Positions 10,824-29,200 of a DNA stretch of 32,000 nt are shown here, one piece after another. Below the pieces are notes generated by a model. That model did not search any database. It worked only from the letters and a program-made list of their open reading frames with translations, and had not been told where the DNA came from. The stretch is from Candidatus Iainarchaeum sp. Its GTDB lineage: Archaea; Iainarchaeota; Iainarchaeia; Iainarchaeales; JACQJH01. The stretch covers positions 150,001 through 182,000 of the forward strand of contig JACQJH010000001.1 of the NCBI GenBank assembly GCA_016205145.1. Direction: 5' to 3'. Numbering within the stretch: the first letter of the stretch is position 1; each line of letters starts with the position of its first letter. Position numbers and translations under genes: made by a program.

Positions 10824-10935
10824 CTGTTTTCACTTGAAAAACCTCTCCGAGGCAGGGGACTCCGTCCCCTCGCGCGCCCCTTGAGCCTTTAATGCTGTTT
10901 CTGTTTTTCACTTGAAAAACCTCTTCAGCAGGGGG
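10824..10935 (-). repeat. Family-1 intergenic insert downstream of secY, flanked by a duplicated secY 3' end
   Basis: ttttcacttgaaaaacctct occurs at 10827-10846 and 10905-10924, with extended similarity over 10824-10857 and 10901-10935. Between them lie hairpin AGGGGAC-TCC-GTCCCCT (10854-10870) and a core that is near-identical to 24355-24386. Confidence 0.75.
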
Positions 10936-16203: not shown

Positions 16204-16223
16204 CCAAAAAACCTTTTCCCATT

Positions 16224-16616
16224 TCAGTAAACGTATGCCAGCAGCCTTCCGCCGAGGCCCTGAGTTTTCGCGTCCATGTGCGTCAAAACGCCTTTCGGGG
16301 TCGTAACGATTATTATGCCCACATCCTTTGCCGGCAGGTACCGTTTCTCGAACTTTTCGAACTCGTCCTTCTTGACCGCGTACCTCGGCTTTATCGCCTT
16401 GCACTCGTTGATTTTTCCGCGAAGCTTGATTTTCAGCCTGTCGCCTTTCCTGTCCTCCAAAAAATCAAAGCCCTCGATGTAGCCCTTTTCCTGCATCACC
16501 CTGAATATTTCCTTCAAAAGCTTTGACCCAGGCTTGAACTCGCATTCCTTTTTTGAAGCCTGATCGCTGTTCTTGACTGCAACCAGTGCATCTGCTATCG
16601 GGTCAATCATTGTCAT
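16224..16616 (-). CDS. rps8: 30S ribosomal protein uS8
   Basis: Trimmed to ATG 16616 (MTMIDPIADALVAVKNSDQASKKECEF.PGSKLLKEIFRVMQEKGYIEGF...GIIIVTTPKGVLTHMDAKTQGLGGRLLAYVY). Confidence 0.95.
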   Translation of the reverse strand: MTMIDPIADALVAVKNSDQASKKECEFKPGSKLLKEIFRVMQEKGYIEGFDFLEDRKGDRLKIKLRGKINECKAIKPRYAVKKDEFEKFEKRYLPAKDVGIIIVTTPKGVLTHMDAKTQGLGGRLLAYVY

Positions 16617-16630
16617 GGCTTTCCACCCCT

Positions 16631-16813
16631 TCAACTGTACTTTGAGAACCCCATCTTCTCCGCGACTTCCTTGAAGCAGCGCCTGCAAATGTTCAAACCA
16701 TACTTCCTTATCAGGCCGGCCCTGACGCCGCACATCTTGCACTTCCTCGCCTTCTTCTCGGCCTTCAAGTCCTTCTTCTGCCTTTCATTGCTGCCTGAGT
16801 TCATTGCGCTCAT
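16631..16813 (-). CDS. rps14: 30S ribosomal protein uS14 (zinc-binding type)
   Basis: ...[40 protein letters not shown]. Confidence 0.93.
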
Positions 16814-16934
16814 TGCACTTCAACCCCGAGCCGATTTCGTCCGGCTGGTTCGACGACGGGTATCTCGCTTTGCTCGATACCCATCTGCGCCGTACTGTAA
16901 AATTCAATTTTTTTCATTGCACGTCCACCCCGAA
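16811..16934 (-). repeat. Family-2 intergenic insert splitting the L5-stop/S14-start junction, flanked by a 20-nt duplication
   Basis: cattgcacttcaaccccgag (16811-16830, carries the S14 ATG) versus cattgcacgtccaccccgaa (16915-16934, carries the L5 TGA): 17/20 identical. The insert carries hairpin agccg-atttcgtc-cggct (16829-16846) and blocks shared with 22950-23048. Confidence 0.75.
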
Positions 16935-17426
16935 TTTTTCCCTCAAAAACGCCATCGCTTCCTCTTTCGAGACAAGCTGCCTTTTTCCGACAACGGCTTT
17001 TTTCCTTTTTCTCCTTTTGACCCTGTAACCGGGCTTTTCCAGTGAAACCAAAACATCCAGGCCGCGGATTCCGAGTTTCGGGTCGTACTTTGCCTGGGGC
17101 AGGTCAATGTATTCGCTTATGCCGAAACCGAAGTTGCCGGCGCGGTCAAAGCTTTTTGCCATTATCTTGTTGTCCTTTGCCTGGAATGCCTGCTTCAGGA
17201 ATTCCTGCGCCTTTTTGCCCCTCAGCGTAACCTTTGTCCCTATTGGAAGGCCCGGCTTCAGGTTCCATGTGGGCTGCTTGACCTTTGCAAGCGTCTGCAC
17301 TGACTTGCTGCCGGTGATTTTCTCAATTATCTGCTGCGCCTTCTTGAGCTCTTCGCCAGACTCGCCGACACCCATGTTGACCGTAACGGCGAATACCCTT
17401 ACATTGCGCATTGCGTTTTCCTGCAT
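16914..17426 (-). CDS. rpl5: 50S ribosomal protein uL5
   Basis: MQENAMRNVRVFAVTVNMGVGESGEELKKA...PGLPIGTKVTLRGKKAQEFL...GNFGFGISEYIDLP..KYDPKLGIRGLDVLVSLEKPGYRV. ATG 17426 shares one nt with the S4e stop. Confidence 0.95.
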   Translation of the reverse strand: MQENAMRNVRVFAVTVNMGVGESGEELKKAQQIIEKITGSKSVQTLAKVKQPTWNLKPGLPIGTKVTLRGKKAQEFLKQAFQAKDNKIMAKSFDRAGNFGFGISEYIDLPQAKYDPKLGIRGLDVLVSLEKPGYRVKRRKRKKAVVGKRQLVSKEEAMAFLREKFGVDVQ

Positions 17427-18145
17427 CAAATCCCCTCTAATTCAGGCCGGGTTTCACCGACAACGAAGATGTTCGCCTCGTTTGTCAGGAATTCCTCTCC
17501 TTCGGACGGCTTGACTGCGATGAGCTTTCTCCTTGTCATCGTTCCCTCTGAAACCTTTGTGATTATGCCCTTGAGCCCCACTTTTTTTCCGCCGATTATG
17601 AATGCTATGTTGCCTTCCTTCATGGCAAGGCTGCCTGAAACCTTCTGGCCCGGCACTTCAACAATGATGGTGTCCCCGACCCTGACATCCTTATTTATTC
17701 CGCGGAAATTCCTGCCGTCGTTTGTCGTTATCTGCTGCTCTTTTCCTTTTATGGTGAACTTCCTTACAACCTTGCACAGCTTTTTGCCCTTTTCCTTGTC
17801 GCTGATTTCTTTTGGCAGGAGCTGGCCCGAATCATTGAGAATAATCCTGTAATTCTTTTTCTGGCCCTTGAGCGAGACAACGTCGAACAATCCGACCGGA
17901 TGCCTTTTGTCCGTCACGGCCTTTCCGTCAACCTCGACTTTGCCCGCAAAAATTATCTGCTGGGCCTCGGACGCGTTCCTGGCTATTCCAAGAAGGTCCC
18001 TTGCGACAAAAAGCAGGGGCACGGAATTCTTGTTGTGCGGTCCCGCTTCCGCCTTGACCGTCCACAGATTTTTTTTCCTGTGGATTTTCCTCGCCTTGCT
18101 CACGCTGAGGGTTTTCTGCTGCCGTCTTTCGCCTTTTTTCGCCAT
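17426..18145 (-). CDS. rps4e: 30S ribosomal protein eS4 (S4e)
   Basis: Trimmed to ATG 18145 (MAKKGERRQQKTLSVSKARKIHRKKNLWTVKAEAGPHNKNSVPLLFVARDLLGIARNASEAQQIIFAGKVEVDGKAVTDKRHPVGLFDVVSL). Confidence 0.95.
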   Translation of the reverse strand: MAKKGERRQQKTLSVSKARKIHRKKNLWTVKAEAGPHNKNSVPLLFVARDLLGIARNASEAQQIIFAGKVEVDGKAVTDKRHPVGLFDVVSLKGQKKNYRIILNDSGQLLPKEISDKEKGKKLCKVVRKFTIKGKEQQITTNDGRNFRGINKDVRVGDTIIVEVPGQKVSGSLAMKEGNIAFIIGGKKVGLKGIITKVSEGTMTRRKLIAVKPSEGEEFLTNEANIFVVGETRPELEGI

Positions 18146-18158
18146 AAACACACCCTGC

Positions 18159-18536
18159 TCATTCTTTCTTTTTCTTAACCTTGCTTTCCTTTTTTTCCTT
18201 GAACCTTTTCCTGTCCTTAGAATCGGTCTCGACAATGATTATGTTCGACGGCCTGATTCTCAACGGCACTTCCTTGCCGTCCGCCTTTTTCCTGACAAGC
18301 TTTTCAATGAAAACGAAATTTTTCCTGTAGTTCACTTCCGTTACTTTGCCTTCATGACCCTTGTGCGCGCCCCTTTCGACTTTTGCCTTGTCGCCTTCCT
18401 TAACTATGATCGTCCTCTTGCCGATTTCTTTCCGGAGTTCCTTTGCGACGGGCGCGGAGCACTGCTTCTGCAGTTCGTGCAGCCTGCTTTCAAAGAACCT
18501 TTTCCTTGCCTTTCCGGGCTTTTTCGATTTTGCCAT
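18159..18536 (-). CDS. rpl24: 50S ribosomal protein uL24
   Basis: ...RTIIVKEGDKAKVERGAHKGHEGKVTEVNYRKNFVFIEKLVRKKADGKEVPLRIRPSNIIIV (KOW motif). Confidence 0.93.
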   Translation of the reverse strand: MAKSKKPGKARKRFFESRLHELQKQCSAPVAKELRKEIGKRTIIVKEGDKAKVERGAHKGHEGKVTEVNYRKNFVFIEKLVRKKADGKEVPLRIRPSNIIIVETDSKDRKRFKEKKESKVKKKKE

Positions 18537-18603
18537 AAAACATCAACGCTTTCTTTTCCCGCTTCCTTCCGGTTCATTCCTTCATTTCGCATTTCTTTTT
18601 TTT

Positions 18604-19002
18604 TCAGATGACCGCGGATGCCATGCCCGCTATTTTTGGCCAGCGCTCGCCGACTTCCTTTGCCACGACGCCCTTTATTTCGGACGCCTTGGGAAGGCCC
18701 TTCTCGTCGACCAGAACAACGGCATTGTCCTCAAACTTTACCCTCAGGCCGTTCGCCCTCCGGTATTCCTTTGCAACCCTCACAATCACTGCTTTTTCTA
18801 CTTTTTTCCTGATTTCTGGCTTTCCTTTCTGCACAACGACTATGACAAAGTCGGCTATGCCCGCGCTGGGCGACCGTCTCTTCTTTCCCTTGAAGCCCTT
18901 GACCGCGATTATTTCCACGACCTTTGCGCCCGAGTTGTCGGTGCAAAAGCACATGCTTTTCAACAGAAGGCTTTTCGCCCTGTTCGCGCTGATCGGCTTC
19001 AT
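18604..19002 (-). CDS. rpl14: 50S ribosomal protein uL14
   Basis: ...LLKSMCFCTDNSGAKVVEIIAVKGFKGKKRRSPSAGIADFVIVVVQKGKPEIRKKVEKAVIVR...FEDNAVVLVDEKGLPKASEIKGVVAKEV. Confidence 0.95.
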   Translation of the reverse strand: MKPISANRAKSLLLKSMCFCTDNSGAKVVEIIAVKGFKGKKRRSPSAGIADFVIVVVQKGKPEIRKKVEKAVIVRVAKEYRRANGLRVKFEDNAVVLVDEKGLPKASEIKGVVAKEVGERWPKIAGMASAVI

Positions 19003-19358
19003 TGCTTCTCGCCCCTTTTCAGAACTTCAAGCACGACAAAACTTTTGGTCTTGCTCAACTGCCTTGTTTCCCCGACCTTTACCGTGTCCCCTTCTTTTGC
19101 GTTCAGGCTGTCGGGATTGTGAGCGTAAATCTTTGACCTGCTTTTCTTGAACCTTTCATACTTCTGCACGTAATGCACTATGTCCCTTTGAACCGTGACG
19201 GTCTTCTGCGCCTTAGCGCTCTTGACGATGCCGACAAAAACATTGCCCCTGACAGAAAACTTTTCCCCGCCTTTCGGCCCCGCAGCCGCGGCCTTCGCCT
19301 CGGGCTTTTCCTTTTCCCGCGCGGCTTTTCCGGCCTTAGCTTCCGCCTTTTTCGTCAT
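18999..19358 (-). CDS. rps17: 30S ribosomal protein uS17
   Basis: ...VRGNVFVGIVKSAKAQKTVTVQRDIVHYVQKYERFKKSRSKIYAHNP.SLNAKEGDTVKVGETRQLSKTKSFVVLEV. ATG 19358 lies 8 nt after GGAGG and forms an ATGA overlap with the Rpp29 stop. In-frame ATGs at 19364 and 19376 are alternatives. Confidence 0.9.
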   Translation of the reverse strand: MTKKAEAKAGKAAREKEKPEAKAAAAGPKGGEKFSVRGNVFVGIVKSAKAQKTVTVQRDIVHYVQKYERFKKSRSKIYAHNPDSLNAKEGDTVKVGETRQLSKTKSFVVLEVLKRGEKQ

Positions 19359-19654
19359 GTGCATTTCCTCCAGCATTCCTTTGACCTGTCTTCCGGCCTG
19401 AACGCCAAAGCCCTGCCTTCCAGCACGGCTTTCTCATTGCCGAGGGAAAACCCGAAGGTCGCCTCTTTTTTGGGAACCTTTTTTTCGGTTCCGCCGCTTT
19501 CAATCACAAAAACGTTTTTCGTCTCGTCTACAACCCTGCCTTTCAATCCAATTCTTCCCGCGTCGGAGCTCTCCAATACCTCGACGTCCAGGCCGATCAG
19601 CTCGTGGCACGCAAGGTTTTTTTGCGAAATGCAGTAATGTTCGGTTTTGATCAT
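19355..19654 (-). CDS. rnp1: RNase P protein component 1 (Rpp29/Pop4)
   Basis: ...NLACHELIGLDVEVLESSDAGRIGLKGRVVDETKNVFVIESGGTEKKVPKKEATFGFSL...LEGRALAFRPEDRSKE. Start uncertain: ATG 19654 is preferred (GTGA SD-like motif, A-rich upstream); 19699 (ATG) and 19744 (TTG) are also possible. Confidence 0.85.
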   Translation of the reverse strand: MIKTEHYCISQKNLACHELIGLDVEVLESSDAGRIGLKGRVVDETKNVFVIESGGTEKKVPKKEATFGFSLGNEKAVLEGRALAFRPEDRSKECWRKCT

Positions 19655-19740
19655 TTTTTCACATTCCAAATTTTTTTCATCCAAGCATTTTCTTTTCATT
19701 TTCCCATTCGTTTTTTTCCCAAACCCAATTTTTTTCCGTT

Positions 19741-20043
19741 TCAAGCGTCAATCTGTTCGTCCTTGTAGCCCTGCTCGAGCAGAACCTTTTTCGCCTTGTC
19801 CCTGTGGTTTCCCTGCAGTTCTATTTCATCGCCTTTTATCGTGCCGCCGCATGCAAGCCTTTTCTTGAGGTTCATTGCCAGCTCGTGGATGTCAATGTCC
19901 TTTCCGATGCCGCTTACCGTCGTGACAACCTTTCCGAACCTTCGCCTGTCGATCCTTATCTTTATTTTCTGCGATTCCTTTGCGATTTCAACGCAGACGC
20001 AGATGTTTTTCGGCAGGCCGCATTTCGGGCAGATTCCCTCCAT
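19741..20043 (-). CDS. Translation initiation factor aSUI1/aIF1
   Basis: MEGICPKCGLPKNICVCVEIAKESQKIKIRIDRRRFGKVVTTVSGIGKDIDIHELAMNLKKRLACGGTIKGDEIELQGNHRDKAKKVLLEQGY. Confidence 0.93.
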   Translation of the reverse strand: MEGICPKCGLPKNICVCVEIAKESQKIKIRIDRRRFGKVVTTVSGIGKDIDIHELAMNLKKRLACGGTIKGDEIELQGNHRDKAKKVLLEQGYKDEQIDA

Positions 20044-20045
20044 TG

Positions 20046-20330
20046 TTATTCCTTCACCTCAGATTTTCCCCTAGCTTTTTCCTTTCCAATCTTTTCCTTT
20101 TTCGCTTTCTTCGCTGTTTCCGGCTTCGCCTTTTCCGCAAGGCTTATTTTAGTGAACAATCTTGCGATGTTTTTCCTCAGATTTTTTATTTTTCCCGGGT
20201 TCGAGGCCTTTGTTCCGGACGCGACAACCGCCCTCTCTTTCGCAAGCTCGTTCTTGAATTCAAAAATCTTCTGCCTGGCATCCCCGACAGTAAGCTCGCT
20301 TGCCTCAATCCTTGCGCTTTTTTTCGCCAT
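20046..20330 (-). CDS. rpl29: 50S ribosomal protein uL29
   Basis: MAKKSARIEASELTVGDARQKIFEFKNELAKERAVVASGTKASNPGKIKNLRKNIARL. ATG 20330 follows GTGAT. Confidence 0.9.
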   Translation of the reverse strand: MAKKSARIEASELTVGDARQKIFEFKNELAKERAVVASGTKASNPGKIKNLRKNIARLFTKISLAEKAKPETAKKAKKEKIGKEKARGKSEVKE

Positions 20331-20336
20331 CAAAAA

Positions 20337-21305
20337 TCACTTCTGTTCCCCGGCTTCAGTTTCTTGTTCCTTGGGTTTTTTTTCGCTTGCTGTGCCTTTT
20401 CCCGCTTTCTCGTGCCTGGGCTTTTCCGCTTTATCCTTCTGCCCTTCCGGCGCGCTTTCCTTTGCGGTTTTTGTCCCGGCGCTTTTTTCCTTTACCGTTT
20501 CAGCTGCCTCTGCGTTTTCAGGCTTTTTTTCCTTTTGCTTTGCCGCCTTCTCCTTTTTTTCCTTCGGCTTTTCTTTTTCCTTCTCTTCGGCCTTTTCTTC
20601 AACTGCTTCCGTTTTTTCCTCGTTCAGTTCAATCTTCTTTCCGGCTTCCTCTTTCGCCCTGGCCTCGTGCTCGGCCAGCTTTTCTTCCGCCTCGAACTTC
20701 CTCTGCTCGATTATCTTTTTCACGCTGATTTTGTCCGGGAAGAGAACGCCCGGCCTGATTATGCGCAGCTTTATGCCGATTGCGCCCGGTTTCGGATAAG
20801 CGTCTGCCTTTGCGTAGTCGACAAGCTTTACCTGGTCGCCGACCTTTTTCATGTAACCCATTGCAATGCGCTGTTTCTTTTTCCTTCCGCCCTTTCCCGC
20901 AAGCTTTCCTGAAAGTATGAGCTCTATGCCCTGCGCGCCCTTTTCGGAAATGCTCCTGACTGTCTTGAATGCAATGCTTCTCCACGAGAAGCCGCGTTCA
21001 AGCAGGTTCTTGACCTTGTCCGCCATAGCCTTCGCGTCAAGCTCCACTTCCCTTATCTCCTGGATTTCAATCTGGGGATTCTGGATTCCGAACTTTTCCT
21101 CGATGTCCTTTGTCAACTGCCTGATGTTCTGGCCGCCCTTTCCGATTGCAAGGCCCGGCCTGGTCACGTGCAGAACGATTCTCGTGACAAGCGGCGTTTT
21201 CACGACTTCAAGCATTGTAAAGCCCGCCTTGTCAAGCTCTTTCCTGAGATAGCGCTCAAGCTCTATTTTCTTGTAGTTCTGCTGCAAAAAATACCTTTCA
21301 ATCAT
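20337..21305 (-). CDS. rps3: 30S ribosomal protein uS3 with about 125-aa Lys/Glu-rich C-terminal extension
   Basis: KH domain (LEVVKTPLVTRIVLHVTRPGLAIGKGGQNIRQLTKDIEEKFG) plus the uS3 C-domain (...GIELILSGKLAGKGGRKKKQRIAMGYMKKVGD...). Residues about 197-322 are low-complexity KE/A. Confidence 0.95.
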   Translation of the reverse strand: MIERYFLQQNYKKIELERYLRKELDKAGFTMLEVVKTPLVTRIVLHVTRPGLAIGKGGQNIRQLTKDIEEKFGIQNPQIEIQEIREVELDAKAMADKVKNLLERGFSWRSIAFKTVRSISEKGAQGIELILSGKLAGKGGRKKKQRIAMGYMKKVGDQVKLVDYAKADAYPKPGAIGIKLRIIRPGVLFPDKISVKKIIEQRKFEAEEKLAEHEARAKEEAGKKIELNEEKTEAVEEKAEEKEKEKPKEKKEKAAKQKEKKPENAEAAETVKEKSAGTKTAKESAPEGQKDKAEKPRHEKAGKGTASEKKPKEQETEAGEQK

Positions 21306-21311
21306 TGCCCA

Positions 21312-21782
21312 TCACTTTGCCTCGATCACTACTATTTCAAGGTGCGTCGACTTCCTTTCGCGCATCCTCCCCGAAATGTGCCCTTTCGGCTGCATTGCGG
21401 TTCTCCTGATGCCCTGCGTTGCAAGCGCGTCAATCACCATAAGCTTTTCCGTGTCCAATCCTTTCGCATCAGCGTTGGCTTTCACGCCTTTCAGCAGGTC
21501 AAGGAATTCCCTGCACGCCTTTTCCGGGAACCTTCCGGCCTTCACTGCATGCACTCCTCTGCCTTTCCTGTGCGCGACCTTTCTCTTGTATTTCTGCAAT
21601 GGCACGTAATCAGAGTGTTCGATTACCCTCTGCAGGAACGCTTCGGCCTTCTTCACGGGCTTTCCCTTTATCTCGCGGCAGATTTCCACTGCAAATTTTG
21701 TGGAAATGCGCCTGTTCGAACCAATGGCGCGCGCGGCCTTCTTGTTTTCCGCGTGCCTGCTGTGGTAATCCGTCTTAGCCAT
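21312..21782 (-). CDS. rpl22: 50S ribosomal protein uL22
   Basis: ...RISTKFAVEICREIKGKPVKKAEAFLQRVIE....VPLQKYKRKVAHRKG...AGRFPEKACREFLDLLKGVKANA...THLEIVVIE. Confidence 0.93.
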   Translation of the reverse strand: MAKTDYHSRHAENKKAARAIGSNRRISTKFAVEICREIKGKPVKKAEAFLQRVIEHSDYVPLQKYKRKVAHRKGRGVHAVKAGRFPEKACREFLDLLKGVKANADAKGLDTEKLMVIDALATQGIRRTAMQPKGHISGRMRERKSTHLEIVVIEAK

Positions 21783-21788
21783 GAATGT

Positions 21789-22190
21789 TCATCCTCTCGC
21801 TGTTATAGCAGTCGACGACTTGGTCGCGCCGATTCCCGCCTTTCCGTGCGACAGCCTCTTCCTCGTCATTGCCATTTCGCCAAGGCAGTGGCCGAGCATT
21901 TTCGGGCTGATTTCGACTATTTCAAACGTGTTTCCCCTATGCACTGCAATGCGCACGCCAACCATTCCCGGAATGATTATTGCGGAGCGCAACTGCGTTC
22001 TTATCGGCTTCGGCTCTTTTCCTTTCGCCTTTTCCGCCAAAGCCTTTTCAACTTTTTTCAGAAGCTTCTTGTCAACCCCGCGTTTGAGGCTTCTCCTCGC
22101 CCTCGCGCTGACAAGCCGTGAAAACTCCTCAATGCCCATCGCCTGCAGTTCTTCAAGGCTTTTTCCCAGATACTTTTCTTCTTTCGCCAT
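21789..22190 (-). CDS. rps19: 30S ribosomal protein uS19
   Basis: ...IRTQLRSAIIIPGMVGVRIAVHRGNTFEIVEISPKMLGHCLGEMAMTRKRLSHGKAGIGATKSS. Confidence 0.95.
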   Translation of the reverse strand: MAKEEKYLGKSLEELQAMGIEEFSRLVSARARRSLKRGVDKKLLKKVEKALAEKAKGKEPKPIRTQLRSAIIIPGMVGVRIAVHRGNTFEIVEISPKMLGHCLGEMAMTRKRLSHGKAGIGATKSSTAITARG

Positions 22191-22226
22191 ATAGTGTCGC
22201 CCGTCATCCCTTCAAACTTACAGCAT

Positions 22227-22949
22227 TCAAAGCTTCTTCTTCCTTCCGGTCCTGCGCGATGCGATTGCGCCGACTTTCCTTCCCGCCGGGGCGCTCCTTG
22301 CAGTGCTCTTCGACTGTCCAGGATGGTGCTGTGCGCCGCCGAACGGGTGGCTCACAGGATTCATTGCAACTCCCCTGACAGTCGGATACCTCAAATGCTT
22401 GGACCTTTTCGCAAAATACGCGACGCCCGCCTTGATCAGCGGTTTTTCGGTGCGTCCGCCGCAAGAAATGTTGCCGACAGTTGCGCGCGCGTCAATAGGA
22501 AAAACGCCGTTCTTGCCTGAAGGCATTTTGACAACCGCTTTTTTCCCGTCCTTTGACACAAGCAAAGCATAACTGCCGCCGGTTTTAACGGAAACCCCGC
22601 CGTCGCCTGAAACCTTTTCAATGTTGAAAACCGGGCAGCCCTCCGGCACGGAAAACAAAGGCAATACATTGCCAATTTCCACTGATGCATCCTTTCCCTG
22701 CTGGAGCTTCTGTCCCACAAAAACGCCTTCCGCCGCGACAATCAGTTCCCTTTCGCCGTTTTCAAGCATGACGTCGGCGAGAATGCTGTTCCTGCCGGAA
22801 TCCTTTACAAGGTCCATTACCTGGCCGACAAGCACTCCGCCTGTTTCAGCGCCGGTTTTCGCAGCATACCTTGTGTCAAGCCTGTTCCTAGTCGCAAGGA
22901 ACGGCAGCGTTCCCTTTCCCCTTCTCTGTTGAATCAGGCTTTTTCCCAT
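22227..22949 (-). CDS. rpl2: 50S ribosomal protein uL2
   Basis: MGKSLIQQRRGKG...LPLFSVPEGCPVFNIE..SGDGG...GGRTEKPLIKAGVAYFAKRSKHLRYPTVRGVAMNPVSHPFGGAQHHPG. Confidence 0.96.
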   Translation of the reverse strand: MGKSLIQQRRGKGTLPFLATRNRLDTRYAAKTGAETGGVLVGQVMDLVKDSGRNSILADVMLENGERELIVAAEGVFVGQKLQQGKDASVEIGNVLPLFSVPEGCPVFNIEKVSGDGGVSVKTGGSYALLVSKDGKKAVVKMPSGKNGVFPIDARATVGNISCGGRTEKPLIKAGVAYFAKRSKHLRYPTVRGVAMNPVSHPFGGAQHHPGQSKSTARSAPAGRKVGAIASRRTGRKKKL

Positions 22950-23048
22950 CGTTTCACCACGGCGATTTCGTCCGCCGAGTCCGACGCACTATGCTCCTTT
23001 CAGTCGCATAGCGCTGGCTCGCGTTGCTCGCATTCTATAACCATCTTT
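22950..23048 (-). repeat. Family-2 intergenic insert between L23 and L2
   Basis: Shares with 16831-16913 the hairpin loop atttcgtc (stem cggcg/cgccg, 22960-22977), the block ctcgcgttgctcg (23018-23030, versus ctcgctttgctcg 16864-16876) and ataaccatct (versus atacccatct). Also has its own hairpin gcactatgc...gcatagcgc (22986-23013). Confidence 0.7.
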
Positions 23049-23495
23049 TTAGATTACTCCCATCTTTGTGGCAATCTCGTCTGCCTTGAATTCCTTGTTG
23101 ACCTTCACAATCGCCTTTTTTCTTCCCTTCAAATCGTTGATAATCCTTATTGCCCCGACCTTTATGCCGTACAGTTCCTGCACAGCCTTTTTCACGGACT
23201 GCTTTGTAGCTTTCCTGCTCACGATAAACGACAGCTTGTTCTGGGTTTCAATCATGCCGACCGCTTTTTCAGTTATCAGCGGGTACAACACGATTTCAAA
23301 ATCCTTCAAACCCTGTTCAGCGGAAACCTTCTGCTCAAAGCCTTCCCCGGCTTCGGCTTTTTTTGCCTTCCTGGCCTTCACTGCAGGCTGTTCAACTGCG
23401 GCTGCCTTTCTCGCCTTCGCCTTGACGGCTGATTTTGCCGCGGCTTTCTTCGCCTTTTTTACCGCCTGTGCAGCCTGCTTTTTGACTTTTGCCAT
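23049..23495 (-). CDS. rpl23: 50S ribosomal protein uL23 with about 60-aa Ala/Lys-rich N-terminal extension
   Basis: ...LYPLITEKAVGMIETQNKLSFIVSRKATKQSVKKAVQELYGIKVGAIRIINDLKGRKKAIVKV. ATG 23495 follows AGGTGA; the ORF-track start at 23507 is GTG. Confidence 0.92.
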   Translation of the reverse strand: MAKVKKQAAQAVKKAKKAAAKSAVKAKARKAAAVEQPAVKARKAKKAEAGEGFEQKVSAEQGLKDFEIVLYPLITEKAVGMIETQNKLSFIVSRKATKQSVKKAVQELYGIKVGAIRIINDLKGRKKAIVKVNKEFKADEIATKMGVI

Positions 23496-23503
23496 AAAAA
23501 TTT

Positions 23504-24307
23504 TCACCTTTTGCTTAGGGCGTGGATTGCCTTCTCCGTCCAGATCGTCAACCTGCCGGCCTGGCAGCCCGGCGCAAGCAACACTGCATTCAGGCTGTCC
23601 AAAGCGACTATTTCAACGCCTTCAAGGTTTCTCGCTGCCTTGTAGACTTTCGCCGGCTTTTCCGTCACTATGAGAATGCTTTTCTTTTTCTTGGTCGTCC
23701 TGCCCCTTCTCTTGCCTTTCCCGGCTCTTGCCTTGCGCTTTCCCTTGGCGCTTTCAACGTCCGCGTTCAAGCCGAACTTTTTCAAAACCAAAACCACGTC
23801 TTTTGTCCTCGCGATTTCCGAGAATTTGTCCTCGAACACCACTGGCAGAGAAATTTTTTCATTCAAAACATGCCTTTTCGAGACAAGCTCCCTGTTCGCG
23901 GTTGTCGCAATCGCGGAATCCAATGCAGCCCGCCTCTCCTTCTTGTTGATTTTTTCACCCGTCTTCTTCTCGGCTTTCGGCGGATGCGCCTTCGGTCCGC
24001 CAACGGACTGCGCAACCCTTGCAACCCTGCCCTGCATCAGGTTTCTCCTGTTCTTGAGCCTCGGCAGCCTTGCGTGGCCGACGTTAATGTTCCTTTCGCC
24101 TTGCGGCATATACCTGCTGCCCTGGTATCTCGCAGTATTGTCCCTTCCCGCTGGCCGGTAAGAGCCTTTCGGCTGTTTCGCGTTCGCCTGCGCCGACAAA
24201 ACCGCCCTCTTGATGAGGTCGGGATGGTATGGCGTGGCAAACACCTTCGGCAACGGAATTTCCTTTTCCGTGCCGCCATCCAGTGCCAAAACCCTTGCTG
24301 CCTTCAT
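23504..24307 (-). CDS. rpl4: 50S ribosomal protein uL4
   Basis: MKAARVLALDGGTEKEIPLPKVFATPYHPDLIKRAVLSAQANAKQPKGSY..AG...RGPKAHPPKAEK. ATG 24307 is preceded by GTGAT; the ORF-track start at 24313 is TTG. Confidence 0.95.
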   Translation of the reverse strand: MKAARVLALDGGTEKEIPLPKVFATPYHPDLIKRAVLSAQANAKQPKGSYRPAGRDNTARYQGSRYMPQGERNINVGHARLPRLKNRRNLMQGRVARVAQSVGGPKAHPPKAEKKTGEKINKKERRAALDSAIATTANRELVSKRHVLNEKISLPVVFEDKFSEIARTKDVVLVLKKFGLNADVESAKGKRKARAGKGKRRGRTTKKKKSILIVTEKPAKVYKAARNLEGVEIVALDSLNAVLLAPGCQAGRLTIWTEKAIHALSKR

Positions 24308-24432
24308 AAACAATCACGTTGAAATATCCATTATCACTTTGAAATGTACTCCACGCAGGGGGCTCCGTCCCCTCGCACGCCCCTGAAACGCGGACTGTCC
24401 TCGCACGCCCCTGAACTTGCCTTCATCTAACA
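24308..24432 (-). repeat. Family-1 intergenic insert splitting the L3-stop/L4-start junction
   Basis: Tandem 17-mer cctcgcacgcccctgaa (24371-24387, 24399-24415). Hairpin AGGGGGC-TCC-GTCCCCT (24357-24373). The flanking junction tgccttcat..atcactttgaaatgta is present twice (24299-24348 and 24418-24447). Confidence 0.8.
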
Positions 24433-25488
24433 TCACTTTGAAATGTAATCCACCTGGCTTATGTCCGGCCCTTTCAGGACAACTTTGCGGATGTTCTTGC
24501 GCAGGCCGATGACCCTTTTTGCCGGACCCGGAATGCTGCCCGCCAAAAGCAAAACAGTGTTTTTCGCCAGGCCGTAATTTGAAAAGCCGGCGCCCGGATT
24601 GACTTCTTCCGGCTTTGCAATCTTCAAAATCTTCTTGTTGTATTCCGTGCGCGTGTGATAGCCCATCTGGCCCGCCCTTGCAACAGTCCACATGACTGTC
24701 GAGGGATTCCAAGGCGAAATCGCGCCGACTGTCCTGGTCTTTTTCGCTTTCGGCCTCGCGGTCTTTATGCCGAACCTTTTGACAACGCCCTGAATGCCCT
24801 TTCCCTTGGTGACAGCCTTAACGTCAACGAATTCGGGCGCGGCAAAAACGTCTTCCGCCGAAATTTCCTTTCCAAGCTTTTCCATTGCAAACGCGGTCTG
24901 CTGTCCGACATTGCCTGAAAGCTTGACTTCCGAGACTTCCGGTTTCTTCTTGCCGATGCCCGTCAGATAGGGTTGCGTATGAACGAGCAAACAAACTTCC
25001 AAAATCCTTGCTTTTTCCTTTTCCAAATCGCCGACTGTTTTCGGCTGTTTCACGGTTTCCGCTTTTGCCTTTTTTCCCTCTTTTGCTTCAACGCCTTTTT
25101 TGCCTTCCTTTTTCGCCCCGAAAGAACCGATTTTTCTCGCCAAATGCTTTTCCTGCCTTTCAGCCAAAACGTCAAACAACGCCCTCGAACCATAGCCCTT
25201 GTCGTCTTTCGCGTACGCCCTGATGCCGAAAACCTTCAATGGCGGGGCTTCCAGCACAGTAACAGCTGATGCGACTTCCTGCCCGACGGTCGTGCCCTTA
25301 GGGTGGGTGTCCTTTCCAAGAACGTGCGCCATGCCTGCCTTGTAAGCCAAAAAGTTCAATGGCTTCGAGGCCTCGCCTTCCTTTGCCTGGGGAGCCTTGA
25401 ACGAGGTGAAAGTAGGCGTTTCCTTAAGCGCCCGCTTTCTCGGATAATAAGCCAGGCTTCCGGACCTGGACTTGTGCTTCTTTGTCAT
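24433..25488 (-). CDS. rpl3: 50S ribosomal protein uL3 (first gene of the cluster), with a KE-rich internal insertion
   Basis: MTKKHKSRSGSLAYYPRKRA...FLAYKAGMAHV...VTKGKGIQGVVKRFG...ISPWNPSTVMWTVARAGQMGYHTRTEYNKKIL. Confidence 0.96.
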   Translation of the reverse strand: MTKKHKSRSGSLAYYPRKRALKETPTFTSFKAPQAKEGEASKPLNFLAYKAGMAHVLGKDTHPKGTTVGQEVASAVTVLEAPPLKVFGIRAYAKDDKGYGSRALFDVLAERQEKHLARKIGSFGAKKEGKKGVEAKEGKKAKAETVKQPKTVGDLEKEKARILEVCLLVHTQPYLTGIGKKKPEVSEVKLSGNVGQQTAFAMEKLGKEISAEDVFAAPEFVDVKAVTKGKGIQGVVKRFGIKTARPKAKKTRTVGAISPWNPSTVMWTVARAGQMGYHTRTEYNKKILKIAKPEEVNPGAGFSNYGLAKNTVLLLAGSIPGPAKRVIGLRKNIRKVVLKGPDISQVDYISK

Positions 25489-25585
25489 CGGATTTCAGAC
25501 TCCAAAAACTGCCATGGCGGTGTTTCAGCCACGACAAAAAAAATTTTTGTCCTATGAAAAGCCAAAAACAGGTAATTTTTTGGCA

Positions 25586-25640
25586 TTTATATCGCAGGCG
25601 GTTCGCATTGCGATACAGTGTACGCGATAAATCGCAGACA
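25586..25640 (-). promoter_or_regulatory. Candidate L3-operon promoter (GATATAAAT box) embedded in an ATCGCA/TGCGAT palindrome array
   Basis: Minus-strand GATATAAATG (about 25585-25594) lies about 100 nt upstream of the L3 ATG. Hexamers: atcgca 25591-96, tgcgat 25609-14, gcgat 25624-28, atcgca 25631-36, forming two inverted pairs. Confidence 0.35.
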
Positions 25641-25722
25641 AAATATAGCCCGCGGAAGCTTTAAAAAGCAATCCCTGTTATTGCCGTCTGCTGTGCCCTT
25701 CATTTTTTTTAGGCGGCTTGGC

Positions 25723-25974
25723 CTAATCGTAAACGTTCCGCCTGTGCCCGGCTTTTGTGACCAGAATCTGCTTTTTGCCGAAGTCCAAATCGGCAATAAC
25801 CCGATAGTCTCCGACCCGCAGCTTGTAGTCCTGCCTTCCCTGCAACCGTTCAAAAAACAGTTTTGGCTCTTCTTTGGCTTGCCGGAGTTTTGAAAAAATG
25901 CGCCTTTTTGTTTCCTGCTCAAGCCCGTTCAGTTCCCTGAGGGCTTTTTTGTCAAAAATCAGTTCGAAAGCCAT
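25723..25974 (-). CDS. RelE/ParE-family type II toxin
   Basis: 83 aa: MAFELIFDKKALRELNGLEQETKRRIFSKLRQ...LQGRQDYKLRVGDYRVIADLDFGKKQILVTKAGHRRNVYD, the typical RelE/ParE pattern. Directly abuts the upstream antitoxin (TGAATG). Confidence 0.85.
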   Translation of the reverse strand: MAFELIFDKKALRELNGLEQETKRRIFSKLRQAKEEPKLFFERLQGRQDYKLRVGDYRVIADLDFGKKQILVTKAGHRRNVYD

Positions 25975-26223
25975 TCAGAGTCCCAGAATCTTTCTGGCTT
26001 CCTCTTCTGAATAGTACTGGCCTGCTTTGATTCTTTTTCTCGCTGCCTCGATTTCAAGGGCGGTTTTCCTGCTCAATTTCGGGTTGTTTTTCGCGGTTTT
26101 GCCTATGAAAACAAGCTTTCGGATAATCTCGTCGAAAGTTTCGCTTTCGTATTCGCGGAACGCTTCAAGGTTTGACTTTGTTTCGGTTTTCAGTTTTATG
26201 GTTGTTATAGTGCTCATGCGCAT
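25975..26223 (-). CDS. Type II antitoxin (archaeal DUF217/VapB-like N-terminus plus RelB-like C-terminus)
   Basis: 82 aa: TTIKLKTETKSNLEAFREYESETFDEIIRKLV...EIEAARKRIKAGQYYSEEEARKILGL. Sits immediately 5' of the RelE-like gene. Confidence 0.7.
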   Translation of the reverse strand: MRMSTITTIKLKTETKSNLEAFREYESETFDEIIRKLVFIGKTAKNNPKLSRKTALEIEAARKRIKAGQYYSEEEARKILGL

Positions 26224-26257
26224 CTAGTATACCATAGTATACTAAATTGTTTAAAAG
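26224..26257 (-). promoter_or_regulatory. TA-module promoter/operator: two tagtatac repeats 10 nt apart plus a TTTAAA box
   Basis: tagtatac at 26225-26232 and 26235-26242, each containing the palindrome GTATAC. Minus-strand CTTTTAAACA (26248-26257) lies about 28 nt upstream of ATG 26223, implying a leaderless mRNA. Confidence 0.45.
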
Positions 26258-29200
26258 TTATCCTATGCAGGTTTGCCCCGCCACGAGCGTTGCCTCGAAA
26301 TCGTCCAGGCTTGTTCCGCCCGAGCCCTGCTTGGAATAGACTGTCAGCGGGTTCCAGAAGAAAACGCTTTTGTCGCCGGAATCCGTGAGGCAGACTTGCC
26401 CGTCTTTGACCAATCCGAAAACGTCGTTCAGTTCGCTTACCGTGTCATTGTTCGACTTGCTGTTCTTTTGCATTCTGCCCAATCCGCCCAAATGGACTGA
26501 CGTGCTGTGCTCGCCGTCCATTGTGTTGAATGAAAGCTTTCCTTCCGCCGGCGAAAGCGATTTGAGCACGAAGTTTGACTGTGCCGGCGCGTAAAGGATT
26601 GTTTTCAGGAACACGTCTCCCGTTTTCACTGCATTCAGCCAGTCGATGGCGTAAGCGTTTTGCGCTCCGCTTACAGGGTCTGCGGTCTGTCCGCGCCTGT
26701 CTGGCCTGAGCCTGAAAGCGTTTGTCGAATAATCGCCTGTGAAGTCCCTGCAAGCCGACAATCCCGACCAGTAGCCTAAAACCGAGCCCACGACTTTCGG
26801 AGAATCGTTTTCGAACAGCTGGTAGTATGCCGAGAACCTGTCGTTCTTCTGCCCGGCAACGTTCATTTTCATCACGACTGGGGTTGCGTAATTCGGCGAG
26901 AACGTCAAAAGCTTTTCATTTCCCGTGCCCTGCCTTGCGATTGAAAGCAGTGCTCCCCTTGTGTCTGCCGCGCCGTTGATTTTCGCGGCATCGGTTTCAA
27001 TTTTTGTCGCAAGCGTCTGCAATGCGTTCGAGTTTTCAACGGGCTTTGCCTCGACGATGTTCTGTCCGGCTTCGGTTGAAATTTTGACCGGCGCGCCCTG
27101 GTTCAGGTAATTGAGGCCATAGCCCTGCCTGCCGTTGTCAGTGCCGATTCCTATCTGTCCATCGAAGGGCAGGTAATAGAACATTGACGCGGGGTTCGGG
27201 TAATCGGCATAGCTGAATTTGACTGTTGCCTGCGCTTTAGGCTTTCCATCGGAGCCGAAGAATTTCCAGTCGTTTCCGAAAACAACGCGCAATTCGGCGT
27301 CGTAAACGCCGGCATCAGGCAGGACATCCGAGTCGGGCGTGTACCTGAAGTCAAGCTTTGACGTGTCGTTGAAATAATCCGCAAACCTGCCCGTGGCATC
27401 CGAGTCAAAGTAGCTTGGCGTGTTGTAGAATGTCTTGTTCGAATAAAACTGCGCGAAGTCCTTCTGGAAGTCATCCGAATAACCGTCCCTTATCAAATTG
27501 ACGCGCGGTCTCAGAATCCTGTGCAGTGTTTCCTTGTCTGGCACGTCTTTTGTCCAGTGCGGTTCTCCTTGGTCCTGGCTGACGAGCTGGCCGAAGAAGG
27601 GCAGTTCCCTGTCATAGAATGCTTCAAGGCCAGTAACTCCCGGTGCAATGTCGAAAGTCGTATTGTTCAGCCAGCACTGCGAAGCGTTTTCCCGCGCAAT
27701 GTTCCAGAAAATAACTGAAATTGCCTTTGTTGCATACTTTTGCGCTTCCGTGCCTGAAAGGCCCTGGATGAACGCGGAGTCAAAGCCTGCAACAACCGAG
27801 TACGGGTCAATGTTTTTTGGCAGCTCTCCTGCATCGAAAACAAATTCTTTCGTCGTGCCCCTGGCAATGCTTGATTCCTGGCCAGCAAGGCTTTTCGTGA
27901 AACTGTTCTGGGGCAGGCCGTTCGCCGACAACACAACCTTTGCCGTCCTGTCCGCGTCGGAGAGGTTTTCGACCTGCACCTTGAAAGTGAAATGGTTTTC
28001 ATTCGCCGCGTCCTTTTCCAGCAGGATTTTCTTGAAGTAAACTTTTCCGCTTTGCGATTCGCTTTGGTTTCCGTTGCTGGTGTTCTGCTCCGCATACGCT
28101 TTTTTCAAGGCGTATTCCGGGTCGGTCGGGCAGGCAAACGAGGGGTTTGCGTTCAGGAAATCGCGCAGGAACTGCATTCTTTGCGTCAAGGCAATCGAGA
28201 ACTGCGTTGCGTCGCAGTAAATGCCATCCGGATTGTCTGCATCGCAGCTCCAAGCATTGATGTTGTTTGTTCCATCAGTTGACCATTTCCAGTTCAAATT
28301 GATTTTCGGCAAGGCTTTTTCTCCGGTTACGCCCCTTCCCTCGCATGCCGCGCTTGCAACGTCCGCGCGAATCGGCTCCCATTCCTGCACTTCTTTTGTC
28401 TGAACGCGGATGTGGAATTTTTGCGAGTAATGCCTTTCGCTTGTGCCGGAGCATGCGCCTTCATCCGGGCCATTGCCGATGTTGAACTGGTCGACAGTGC
28501 CGCTTGAACAAATGACATCATAGCTTTGGTCGCCGCTTCCAGTCCTTCCTTTACTGCTGTCATGCAATGCGTCGCCGTTGATGTGCTCGGTTGCCCCGAC
28601 TTCGAGTATGGCGAATTTTGGCGTGTCAGCCTGGTAGCCGTCATTCGAGAAAACGATTTCCTGCATTTCAACGTCTCCTCCGCGGCCTTCCTCAAGGTTC
28701 CATTTCGGCCTGATTTTGCCGTCCAGGCCGCTGACCTTGAGCTGGTCGTCGGTTGAATCCGGCGGAACCATTTTGTTGCCGTCTTTCGTCACAACCGTCA
28801 TGCCGGAAATGTTCAGGACATAATCGTTCATGGGGTTGACAGCCGAAACGTCATGGCAGGAATACATCTGGTCGGCAAGCCAGTTGACAACCATGTTAGT
28901 AATCCAACTCGCAACAAGCGAAATGCCGAAGCTTGCGGCCAGATTGCCTAGCTGTGAAAGCTGGCCTTGGGCGGAATGGAGTTTGGCTTGGGTTTGTTCT
29001 AATTTTCCATATAGGTCTCCCGATGCTTCTTGTCCCGTGCCACCAATGGCATCTATTTCGCCCCTAATGCTTGCCACTTTTGCGCTTAACGTGGCGATTT
29101 TCACAAGCGACCCCAGCATCGGCAGCGCGGCGTTCAGGAACTTGTAGGTCGAGTATGCGACGTACATCAGCGTCGCGGTCTTGATGTATTGTTTCACGTT

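What the first reader, a model, noticed from the sequence alone, without database searches (positions are those of the whole stretch)
22950..23048. Family-2 element between L23 and L2: hairpin with conserved 8-nt loop and two compensatory stem changes
**Covariation.** The 99-nt L23-L2 spacer and the L5-S14 spacer share an identical 8-nt loop: atttcgtc on the plus strand, GACGAAAU in the RNA. The stems are cggcg/cgccg (22960-22977) versus agccg/cggct (16829-16846). Two of the five base pairs differ by double substitutions that keep pairing (C-G to A-T; G-C to C-G).

**Other shared blocks.** gtYcgacg next to the hairpin, ctcgcKttgctcg, and ataMccatct.

**Position.** In both loci the hairpin lies about 10-20 nt upstream of the start codon of the next ribosomal-protein gene (L2, S14), next to the SD-like GGTGAA/GGTTGAA.

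**Inference.** Covariation with a fixed loop is the signature of a selected RNA structure. It could be a protein-binding or translational-control hairpin, or the functional core of a mobile RNA or DNA element. I know of no described archaeal ribosomal-protein leader with this motif, but I cannot search.
Basis: partly seen in the sequence, partly recalled or inferred. Interest (0 to 1): 0.7.

Follow-up and report, generated by a model that had tools for sequence, protein, structure and literature searches.

The report
Hairpin end of small insertion element
The conserved hairpin is real, but it is the 3' end of a small hairpin-rich DNA insertion that has landed just after stop codons in the ribosomal-protein gene cluster of a DPANN archaeon, copying the end of the upstream gene each time; it is not a conserved ribosomal-protein control element.

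Summary
The L23|L2 spacer (22950-23048) and the L5|S14 spacer (16814-16913) share a 5-bp hairpin with loop GACGAAAU, two compensatory pairs, and collinear blocks (0/2000 shuffles reach the alignment score).

The two spacers are copies of a small insertion element, not a conserved leader:
- **Empty site.** In sister genomes (~91% DNA identity) L5 and S14 overlap by ATGA. The window carries an 84-nt insert flanked by a 20-nt duplication of the L5 3' end.
- **Turnover.** The sister L23|L2 spacer is a diverged 65-nt version that keeps two hairpins by compensatory changes. A relative with 85% L2 identity has no element.
- **Other members.** They sit after L23 (L103), L2 (L020), S19 (L090) and RtcB (L008) in distant Iainarchaeota. 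All are in sense orientation and end in the same hairpin, abutting a 13-32-nt duplication that includes the upstream stop codon. In L020 the next start codon is 121 nt away, and L008 has no co-oriented downstream gene.

The stem is paired in 25/25 cells (five copies), and three pairs covary. The hairpin resembles L23's last codons (15/16 nt), so it probably arose from a duplicated L23 3' end. Rfam has no match. The insertion mechanism is unresolved.

The parts
22950..23048 (-). Element copy A. It fills the L23|L2 spacer and is an older, rearranged copy without a clean flanking duplication.
   Evidence: The spacer of L158 lacks the element.
22960..22977 (-). 3' hairpin H3 of copy A: CGGCG GACGAAAU CGCCG. 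This is the reported finding.
   Evidence: R2 model, 40.1 bits. It is 15/16 identical to the sister lineage's L23 3' codons GGCGGATGAAATCGCC.
22986..23014 (-). Hairpin H2 of copy A, a 9-bp stem including one G-U. Its apex at 22994-23006 is the cap motif C-GA-CU-GAA-AG-GA-G (tandem G.A, then 2 bp, then a triloop).
   Evidence: The stem is kept in the sister spacer through three double changes (read).
23018..23030 (-). Cap motif H1 of copy A: CGAGCAACGCGAG.
   Evidence: R1 model, 27.6 bits.
16830..16913 (-). Element copy B, an 84-nt insert between L5 and S14.
   Evidence: The empty site is seen in seven sister contigs. The insert is confirmed in an independent Logan assembly.
16829..16846 (-). 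3' hairpin H3 of copy B: AGCCG GACGAAAU CGGCU. It is the last feature of the insert, and its final U is the first base of the downstream repeat.
   Evidence: (39.8 bits).
16855..16885 (-). Long hairpin of copy B: a 10-bp stem GAUGGGUAUC/GAUACCCGUC capped by CGAGCAAAGCGAG (16864-16876).
16914..16933 (-). Direct repeat 1 of copy B: the functional L5 3' end including the stop codon (TCGGGGTGGACGTGCAATGA).
16810..16829 (-). Direct repeat 2 of copy B: the duplicated L5 3' end (TCGGGGTTGAAGTGCAATGA). It now carries the S14 start codon, and it matches the sister L5 end better than repeat 1 does.
23070..23085 (-). L23 codons (K)-A-D-E-I-A, GGCAGACGAGATTGCC. This is the probable evolutionary source of the H3 hairpin and itself forms a 4-bp hairpin with loop GACGAGAU.

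Best explanation
A and B are two copies of a small (about 65-100 nt), non-coding, hairpin-rich insertion element found in Iainarchaeota (Diapherotrites, DPANN).

SHOWN:
- The element lies in the sense orientation of the flanking gene.
- Recent copies sit directly after that gene's stop codon.
- Recent copies are flanked by a direct duplication of the gene's last 13-32 nt, stop codon included. Both the upstream gene and the native upstream region of the next gene therefore stay intact.
- The layout is a variable 5' tail, one or two long hairpins, a linker with a conserved YCGG, and a 5-6-bp terminal hairpin. The long hairpins are often capped by tandem G.A plus 2-4 bp plus a triloop. The terminal hairpin has loop G-W-C-G-M-A-A-N and abuts the downstream repeat.
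- The reported hairpin is this terminal module. Its stem is kept by compensatory changes on the sense strand.

INFERRED:
- The hairpin descends from the L23 3' codons A-D-E-I-A. These were duplicated by an early insertion at the L23|L2 junction and then carried along when the unit was copied to other junctions.
- The hairpin marks where copying of the element stops. It would act as an end or termination signal, or as a pause site, in a copy-and-paste event such as template switching or fill-in of staggered nicks.
- In the host mRNA the hairpin is a tolerated intercistronic structure, not a regulator.
- The enzyme or repair pathway responsible is unknown.
For: **Empty site for B.** Seven sister contigs have L5/S14 overlapping by ATGA. 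The window has the 84-nt insert plus a 20-nt repeat, and BLAST alignments break exactly there.

**Further members, all sense strand, all ending in the hairpin next to repeat 2**:

| Locus | Junction | Repeat length |
|---|---|---|
| L103 | L23\|L2 | 13 nt |
| L020 | after L2 stop | 19 nt |
| L090 | after S19 stop | 14 nt |
| L008 | after RtcB | 32 nt |

**Specific architecture.** The composite of a capped hairpin plus the terminal hairpin occurs 5 times in 3.16 Mb of fetched DNA. Four of the five are these elements.

**Pairing.**
- Terminal hairpin: 25/25 cells paired and 3/5 pairs with double changes; 0/500 shuffles reach the covariation score.
- Terminal-hairpin set that includes the sister copy: 20/20 cells paired.
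- Cap motif: 24/24 cells paired and 3/4 pairs with double changes.

**Sense-strand signature.** Tandem G.A pairs and G-U pairs are present, and the sense fold is more stable than the antisense fold in 5 of 6 inserts.

**Rapid turnover at L23|L2** despite about 91% identity in the flanking genes.

**Link to L23 codons.** The A hairpin is 15/16 identical to the sister L23 3' end (0/3000 shuffles). The B hairpin is 13/15 identical (31/3000).

**Same style of insertion elsewhere.** A second, unrelated insert family in the same window also has 16- and 20-nt duplications ending just after a stop codon, and one of them has a sister empty site.

**Not an assembly artefact.** Independent assemblies confirm the sequences.
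Against: - Only about seven members are known, and all come from r-protein neighbourhoods because only those were fetched. Genome-wide copy number is therefore unknown.
- There are no terminal inverted repeats and no fixed-length target duplication, and no transposase, reverse transcriptase or integrase gene lies in the window. No mobilisation mechanism is demonstrated.
- Copy A has no clean flanking repeat.
- The 15-nt cap sequence GCGAACGAAGTGAGC is identical in three genomes of very different G+C. Orthologous hairpins are kept by compensatory change. Both could instead reflect a host function such as protein binding.
- My alignments of the short modules were made by hand, which favours pairing.
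Confidence: 0.6

Rival explanations
1. The hairpin is a cis-regulatory mRNA element. It would be a ribosomal-protein autoregulation site or a translational-control hairpin for the downstream gene (L2, S14), selected at the RNA level.
For: - Sense orientation in all copies.
- Positions 0-15 nt before the start codon in A, B, L103 and L164.
- Compensatory changes preserve the stem.
- The spacers fold better than shuffles (z about -3.1).
- Other Iainarchaeota have hairpins that sequester the Shine-Dalgarno sequence before L2 or L23 (L101, L007, L015).
Against: - Absent at L5|S14 in sister genomes, and absent at L23|L2 in L158.
- 121 nt from the next start codon in L020.
- No co-oriented downstream gene in L008.
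- It precedes or follows unrelated genes (L2, S14, S19, L22, RtcB).
- The distance to the Shine-Dalgarno sequence is not fixed.
- No Rfam family matches.
Confidence: 0.12
2. The hairpin is an incidental relic. A duplicated piece of L23 coding sequence (GCN GAY GAR ATH GCN is inherently self-complementary) would be drifting neutrally, with no selection on the structure and no role in mobility.
For: - The A hairpin is 15/16 identical to the sister L23 codons.
- L019 shows a fresh 43-49-nt duplicate of the L23 3' end containing GACGAAAT in the same relative place.
- The real L23 genes already form 2-4 bp of this stem.
Against: - All spacer copies have 5-6 perfect pairs, whereas coding copies have 2-4.
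- Three pairs covary among copies, with no unpaired cell.
- The hairpin travels with the element to junctions unrelated to L23.
- In every recent insert it is exactly the last feature before repeat 2.
Confidence: 0.15
3. The element is a tiny mobile gene for a small structured RNA. An AT-rich 5' box (GAATATTAC / TTGAATTTTAC) would serve as an archaeal promoter. The tandem-G.A caps would be protein-binding sites, for example for an L7Ae-type protein.
For: - The AT-rich box is conserved in L008 and L090, and approximately in B and L103.
- The tandem G.A cap is conserved with covariation in six hairpins.
- There is a sense-strand bias.
Against: - The box is missing in A, L020 and L164.
- The cap lacks the 3-nt bulge that defines a K-turn or K-loop, and it is absent from L090.
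- No expression data exist.
- The available promoter scanner covers sigma-70 promoters only, so this was not tested.
Confidence: 0.1

Closest known systems
Small palindromic intergenic repeats and MITEs of prokaryotes (REP/BIME, ERIC, Correia/NEMIS, RUP/BOX, Rickettsia palindromic elements). Comparison from my own knowledge.
   Same: Short, non-coding and hairpin-forming. Multi-copy, inserted between genes of operons and co-transcribed. Patchy between close relatives, with recognisable empty sites.
   Different: No terminal inverted repeats. The target duplications are long and variable (13-32 nt) rather than 2-10 nt. The insertion edge lies 0-4 nt after a stop codon. The 3' end is constant while the 5' end varies. 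This is an archaeal DPANN lineage.
IS200/IS605-derived palindrome-associated elements and REP/RAYT systems (HUH-enzyme, single-strand mobilisation). Comparison from my own knowledge.
   Same: Strand-specific subterminal hairpins with irregular pairs, no inverted terminal repeats, and an orientation bias.
   Different: Those families make no target duplication, whereas clear 13-32-nt duplications are present here. No TnpA, TnpB or RAYT gene lies in the window.
Casposons (Cas1 integrase; 15-bp target duplication at the 3' end of a tRNA gene; PMC5137440, read)
   Same: An archaeal element with an unusually long target duplication that inserts at the 3' end of a gene.
   Different: Casposons are large, have terminal inverted repeats that are needed for integration, and give a nearly fixed 15-bp duplication. 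The elements here are under 100 nt, lack inverted repeats, and vary from 13 to 32 nt.
SINE-like retroposition (target-primed reverse transcription), and rolling-circle elements with a 3' hairpin terminator and 3' transduction (Helitron, IS91). Comparison from my own knowledge.
   Same: Variable-length target duplications (retroposons). Elements defined by a 3' stem-loop with variable 5' extent. Apparent carry-over of former flanking sequence (the L23-derived hairpin) to new sites.
   Different: No poly(A) or simple-repeat tail. No reverse transcriptase or Rep partner has been identified. Helitron and IS91 make no target duplication. None of this is known in DPANN archaea.
Ribosomal-protein leader RNAs (for example the E. 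coli S10 and spc leaders; Rfam also holds archaeal r-protein leader families). Comparison from my own knowledge.
   Same: A structured RNA-sense element inside an r-protein operon, next to a start codon in some copies.
   Different: Not conserved at orthologous sites. It is found beside unrelated genes and away from start codons. No Rfam match.

Membership tests
Ribosomal-protein leader / autoregulatory mRNA element | Conserved at the orthologous position in related genomes | tested here: not met
   B is absent in 7 sister contigs. The L23|L2 spacer is 99, 65 or 33 nt with different content in genomes with 100, 95 or 85% L2 identity. Most archaea have 0-15 nt there.
Ribosomal-protein leader / autoregulatory mRNA element | Overlaps or adjoins the ribosome-binding site of the regulated gene | tested here: inconclusive
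   0-15 nt from the start codon in A, B, L103 and L164. But 121 nt away in L020, and no co-oriented downstream gene in L008.
Ribosomal-protein leader / autoregulatory mRNA element | Mimics the rRNA binding site of the regulating protein | not testable with these tools
   No rRNA of this organism is in the window or in the fetched loci.
Any curated Rfam family | Covariance-model match at or near the gathering score | tested here: not met
   No hits at gathering score in the window or in 8 related loci. At E<=10 over 16000-26300 there was only an unrelated weak hit elsewhere.
Classical MITE | Terminal inverted repeats | tested here: not met
   The ends of B, L008, L020 and L103 were read directly. 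The 5' ends (AAAAAATTG..., TGAATATT..., CGACAAAG...) are not complementary to the 3' hairpin ends.
Classical MITE | Short target duplication of fixed length | tested here: not met
   The duplications are 13, 14, 19, 20 and 32 nt.
Classical MITE | Small, non-coding, multi-copy, with empty sites in relatives | tested here: met
   65-102 nt long. Two copies in 32 kb and seven members in total. Empty site for B.
IS200/IS605-derived elements / REP-RAYT | No target duplication on insertion | tested here: not met
   Clear direct repeats flank B, L103, L008, L020 and L090.
IS200/IS605-derived elements / REP-RAYT | Cognate TnpA or RAYT gene in the genome | not testable with these tools
   None in the window. 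The rest of the 613-kb contig could not be fetched.
Casposon-type (Cas1) integration | Terminal inverted repeats and a duplication of about 15 bp | tested here: not met
   No inverted repeats, and variable 13-32-nt repeats. The features are as defined in PMC5137440.
Retroposon (target-primed reverse transcription) | Variable-length target duplication; 3' end constant and 5' end variable | tested here: met
   Repeats of 13-32 nt. All copies end with the hairpin. The 5' tails differ (7-38 extra nt in B and L090).
Retroposon (target-primed reverse transcription) | A-rich or simple-repeat 3' tail, and a partner reverse transcriptase | tested here: not met
   No tail lies between the hairpin and repeat 2. 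No reverse transcriptase lies in the window. A genome-wide search was not possible.
K-turn / K-loop (L7Ae site) | Tandem sheared G.A pairs preceded by a 3-nt bulge on the 5' strand | tested here: not met
   GA...GA is present in 6 caps, but Watson-Crick pairs abut it on both sides and there is no bulge (sequences).

The most novel reading that the evidence does not exclude
These are a previously undescribed class of archaeal mobile element. They would be transposase-less (or mobilised by an unknown enzyme) hairpin elements that hop to the stop-codon boundary of essential genes. The move would be a copy-choice or target-primed mechanism that ends at a terminal hairpin and duplicates 13-32 nt of the target. 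They would be able to carry former flanking sequence (the L23-derived hairpin) to new sites. The GAATATTAC box, which resembles the nick-site nonanucleotide of Rep (HUH) proteins, could point to a single-strand DNA route.
Probability: 0.3. Interest if true: 0.75.

Novelty: new variant of a known kind. Interest (0 to 1): 0.55.

Why it matters
DPANN archaea have tiny, tightly packed genomes in which r-protein genes normally touch or overlap. This case shows that even those junctions are colonised by small structured inserts, and that the inserts preserve both neighbouring genes by duplicating the upstream gene's end.

- **For annotation.** Such spacers should not be read as conserved regulatory RNAs on the strength of two copies and a few compensatory pairs.
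- **For mobile-element biology.** Three features together do not fit any standard prokaryotic transposition scheme and point to a testable copy mechanism: long variable target duplications, an insertion edge fixed at stop codons, and a constant 3' hairpin.
- **For RNA evolution.** A structured module seems to have been born from duplicated coding sequence.

Tried and rejected
- **Rfam.** Scans at gathering score (window and 8 related loci) and at E<=10 (window 16000-26300 only) found no family. Fourteen viral loci carrying the 15-mer gave only an unrelated OTKONC hit.
- **tRNA/tmRNA scan of the window.** None found.
- **Pseudoknot idea.** Upstream CGUC pairing with loop GACG fits A and B, but the loop change in L103/L020 is not compensated. 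Dropped (sequences).
- **K-turn and hammerhead resemblance of the GA...GA cap.** There is no 3-nt bulge, no CUGAUGA/GAAA core, and no Rfam hit. Dropped.
- **Covariance models.** R1 (cap) and R2 (terminal hairpin) were searched over 512 kb of Iainarchaeota loci. R1 found only its training copies. R2 found the independent L090 copy and weakly re-found the sister copy.
- **Viral contig scans.** GCGAACGAAGTGAGC gave at least 120 hits, about what a 15-mer gives by chance in that collection, with only a slight excess of flanking pairing. The hairpin pattern gave 8 hits, which I did not examine.
- **Microhomology.** I looked for microhomology between element ends and the sequence just upstream of the repeats. 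In the L3|L4 case the apparent match is an extension of the repeat with one mismatch; elsewhere it is ambiguous.
- **Reaching more of this genome.** The 613-kb NCBI contig was not returned, and Logan contigs end inside the window.
- **Small-ORF reading of the spacers.** The 24-codon and 14-codon ORFs are not conserved. Dropped.
- **Literature searches.** Searches on DPANN MITEs, archaeal r-protein leaders and hairpin elements with long duplications turned up nothing describing this.

Full report
**Context.** The window carries an archaeal S10/spc-type ribosomal-protein cluster on the minus strand: L3-L4-L23-L2-S19-L22-S3-L29-SUI1-Rpp29-S17-L14-L24-S4e-L5-S14-S8-L6-...-SecY. The L2 and L5 proteins are identical to MBI4052593.1 and MBI4052582.1 of a 'Candidatus Diapherotrites archaeon' MAG, on a contig of 612,963 nt. 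In the species-representative genome set the nearest L2 proteins are from Iainarchaeota at no more than 61% identity. A sister lineage turned up in ENA and JGI metagenomes, with L2 95% identical and DNA about 91-92% identical. So did one partial contig with 85% L2 identity (L158).

**The observation.** It is correct in every detail.
- Spacer A (22950-23048, 99 nt) ends with CGGCG-GACGAAAU-CGCCG, 10 nt before the L2 ATG.
- Spacer B (16814-16913, 100 nt) ends with AGCCG-GACGAAAU-CGGCU, 15 nt before the S14 ATG.
- Two pairs differ by double substitutions.
- The blocks AGATGGKTAT, CGAGCAAMGCGAG and GTCGRAC occur in the same order.
- The A-B alignment score exceeds all 2000 dinucleotide shuffles (z about 5.7), and B is A's best non-self match in the window.

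**B is an insertion.** In seven sister-lineage contigs L5 and S14 overlap by ATGA...TTCGG(A/G)GTTGAAGTGCAATGAGCGCAATGAAC.... The window has the same sequence interrupted.
- The L5 end TCGGGGTGGACGTGCAATGA lies at 16914-16933.
- It is followed by 84 nt of new sequence (16830-16913).
- Then comes a second copy, TCGGGGTTGAAGTGCAATGA (16810-16829), which supplies the S14 start codon.
- BLAST alignments between sister and window break exactly here, with a 20-nt overlap.
- The reported hairpin is the last feature of the insert. Its final base is the first base of repeat 2.
- An independent Logan assembly contains the same insert.

**A is an older copy at a fast-changing site.** The L23|L2 spacer is 0-15 nt in most archaea, 33 nt without any hairpin in L158, and 65 nt in the sister lineage. 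The sister spacer is collinear with A but far more diverged than the flanking genes. Two hairpins are nonetheless kept.
- The central hairpin is GGCGUAUUGC/GCAAUACGCC in the sister and GCGCUAUGC/GCAUAGUGC in the window. Three pairs differ on both sides.
- The terminal hairpin is AACCG-GACGUGA-CGGUU in the sister, directly abutting the ATG, and CGGCG-GACGAAAU-CGCCG in the window. Again three pairs differ on both sides.

**More members.** A search for direct repeats 40-260 nt apart, a structural scan and a covariance model of the hairpin found homologous inserts in distant Iainarchaeota.

| Locus | Position | Insert | Flanking repeat |
|---|---|---|---|
| L103 | L23\|L2 | 79 nt | 13 nt, GGGTGTGATYTAA |
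| L020 | after the L2 stop | 68 nt | 19 nt |
| L090 | after the S19 stop | 102 nt | 14 nt |
| L008 | after RtcB | 71 nt | 32 nt |

- All are in the sense orientation of the upstream gene.
- All end with a 5-6-bp hairpin abutting repeat 2. The loops are GUCGAAAU, GUCGCAAA, AUCGGAAG and GACGAAAC.
- In every case the repeat includes the stop codon, or ends directly before one in L008, where a TGA follows repeat 1 and CGA follows repeat 2.
- In L020 the next start codon is 121 nt away.
- In L008 the next gene is convergent.
- So the constant feature is the upstream gene end, not a downstream start codon.

**Structure support.**
- Terminal hairpin, five copies: 25/25 cells paired, three of five pairs with double changes, and 0/500 shuffles reach the covariation score. 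Slid controls pair at 20-52%.
- A set with the sister copy (one loop base dropped to keep register): 20/20 cells paired.
- Many of the long hairpins carry an apical cap, C-GA-NN-NNN-NN-GA-G. Six examples (two in A, one in B, and L101, L103 and L015) give 24/24 cells paired, with three of four pairs covarying.
- Tandem G.A and G-U pairs exist only on the sense strand, and the sense fold is more stable than the antisense fold in five of six inserts.
- I aligned these short modules by hand, so the counts lean towards pairing. The whole-spacer folds have z about -3.1, while the short hairpin alone is unremarkable.

**Origin of the hairpin.**
- The A hairpin GGCGGACGAAATCGCC is 15/16 identical to the sister's L23 3' codons GGCGGATGAAATCGCC, which encode K-A-D-E-I-A (0/3000 shuffles).
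- The B hairpin matches the same codons at 13/15 (31/3000).
- L019 shows what a fresh event looks like: a 43-49-nt duplicate of the L23 3' end, containing GACGAAAT, sits just before L2 behind an insert of about 85-93 nt (the count depends on where the imperfect repeat is taken to start).
- My inference is that an early insertion at L23|L2 duplicated these inherently self-complementary codons. The pseudo-coding copy was then sharpened into a 5-bp hairpin, and the unit including it was later copied to other junctions.
- The 'fixed loop' is therefore partly inherited D-E-I codons.

**What it is not.**
- Rfam has no match.
- There are no tRNA-like features.
- The cap lacks the bulge of a K-turn.
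- There are no terminal inverted repeats, and no transposase, integrase or reverse-transcriptase gene lies in the window.
- The repeat lengths (13-32 nt) rule out a fixed-stagger transposase, including the casposase (15 bp; PMC5137440).
- The presence of repeats rules out IS200/IS605- or REP-type insertion.

**Mechanism.**
- Shown: duplicative insertion at gene ends; sense orientation; a constant 3' hairpin with variable 5' tails; empty sites; and rapid turnover.
- Inferred: copying stops at the terminal hairpin and resumes on the target 13-32 nt upstream of where it left. This could happen by template switching, or by fill-in of staggered nicks with capture of an element copy.
- I could not identify the enzyme or test this.
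- The regulatory-leader reading is unlikely but not excluded. Conservation of the 15-nt cap GCGAACGAAGTGAGC in three genomes with different G+C and the compensatory maintenance of orthologous hairpins could reflect a host function.

**Verdict.** This is a real, structured, repeated element. It is best filed as a new variant of the small palindromic insertion elements of prokaryotes, with unusual long and variable target duplications anchored at stop codons. It is of moderate interest. The hairpin is its terminal module, not an r-protein leader.

Noticed in passing
window 24333-24447 (L3|L4) and 10827-10924 (after SecY): A second, unrelated insert family with core GCGAGGGGACGGAGYCCCCTGC. There is an 83-nt insert with 16-nt repeats TACATTTCAAAGTGAT, and a 58-nt insert with 20-nt repeats AGAGGTTTTTCAAGTGAAAA. 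Both repeats include the upstream stop codon. The sister lineage has the empty L3|L4 site (26-nt spacer).
   Followed up: partly
L008 3107-3241 and L093 2654-2792: The 3' end of RtcB carries an insert with a 32-34-nt duplication in two different genomes, but the two inserts have unrelated sequences. This could be a hot spot.
   Followed up: partly
eight inserts: window B, the two inserts of the second window family, L019, L020, L103, L008, L093: The downstream edge of the duplicated segment always lies 0-4 nt after the stop codon of the upstream gene, while its upstream edge varies by 13-49 nt. Selection to keep the upstream gene intact explains why the stop codon is included. It does not obviously explain why the edge never lies further downstream.
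   Followed up: no
L008 3139-3150, L090 about 1353-1363, window 16897-16907: A box GAATATTAC(CG) is conserved in L008 and L090, and B has TTGAATTTTAC. From memory it fits NANTATTAC, the nick-site nonanucleotide of Rep proteins of circular single-stranded DNA viruses. This is a lead only and was not tested.
   Followed up: no
window 22986-23015 (hairpin 2 of spacer A); L081-L083: Logan contigs from two sequencing runs both break inside this hairpin. The upstream and downstream contigs overlap by only 23 nt. This may reflect population heterogeneity at the site.
   Followed up: partly
window 23070-23085 versus L164 about 2536-2551: The L23 codons A-D-E-I differ at four synonymous sites between window and sister (GCA GAC GAG ATT versus GCG GAT GAA ATC). 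One of these changes turns a G-C pair of the coding hairpin into A-U. The difference is denser than the roughly 8-9% background.
   Followed up: no
L101 9980-10000, L007/L109 just upstream of L2, L015 5890-5915: Another spacer module places the Shine-Dalgarno sequence in a hairpin (CACCUC...GGAGGUG) a few nt before the L2 or L23 start codon. In L101 and L015 it is combined with the same GCGAACGAAGTGAGC cap.
   Followed up: no
L101, L020, L015 (whole loci): Some Iainarchaeota have many r-protein junctions of 45 nt or more (11 in L101). Overall 61 of 556 measured junctions are that long, and only a handful show recognisable flanking duplications.
   Followed up: partly
window 25723-26223: A ParE-like toxin gene (25723-25974) and a DUF7557 gene (25975-26223) sit directly upstream of the L3 gene.
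   Followed up: no
viral loci L181, L195, L211, L214, L231 and others: In several viral contigs the 15-mer GCGAACGAAGTGAGC sits beside a second GA-GC-GAA-GC-GA unit, or at the tip of longer hairpins. The overall hit number is near chance, so the meaning is unclear.
   Followed up: partly
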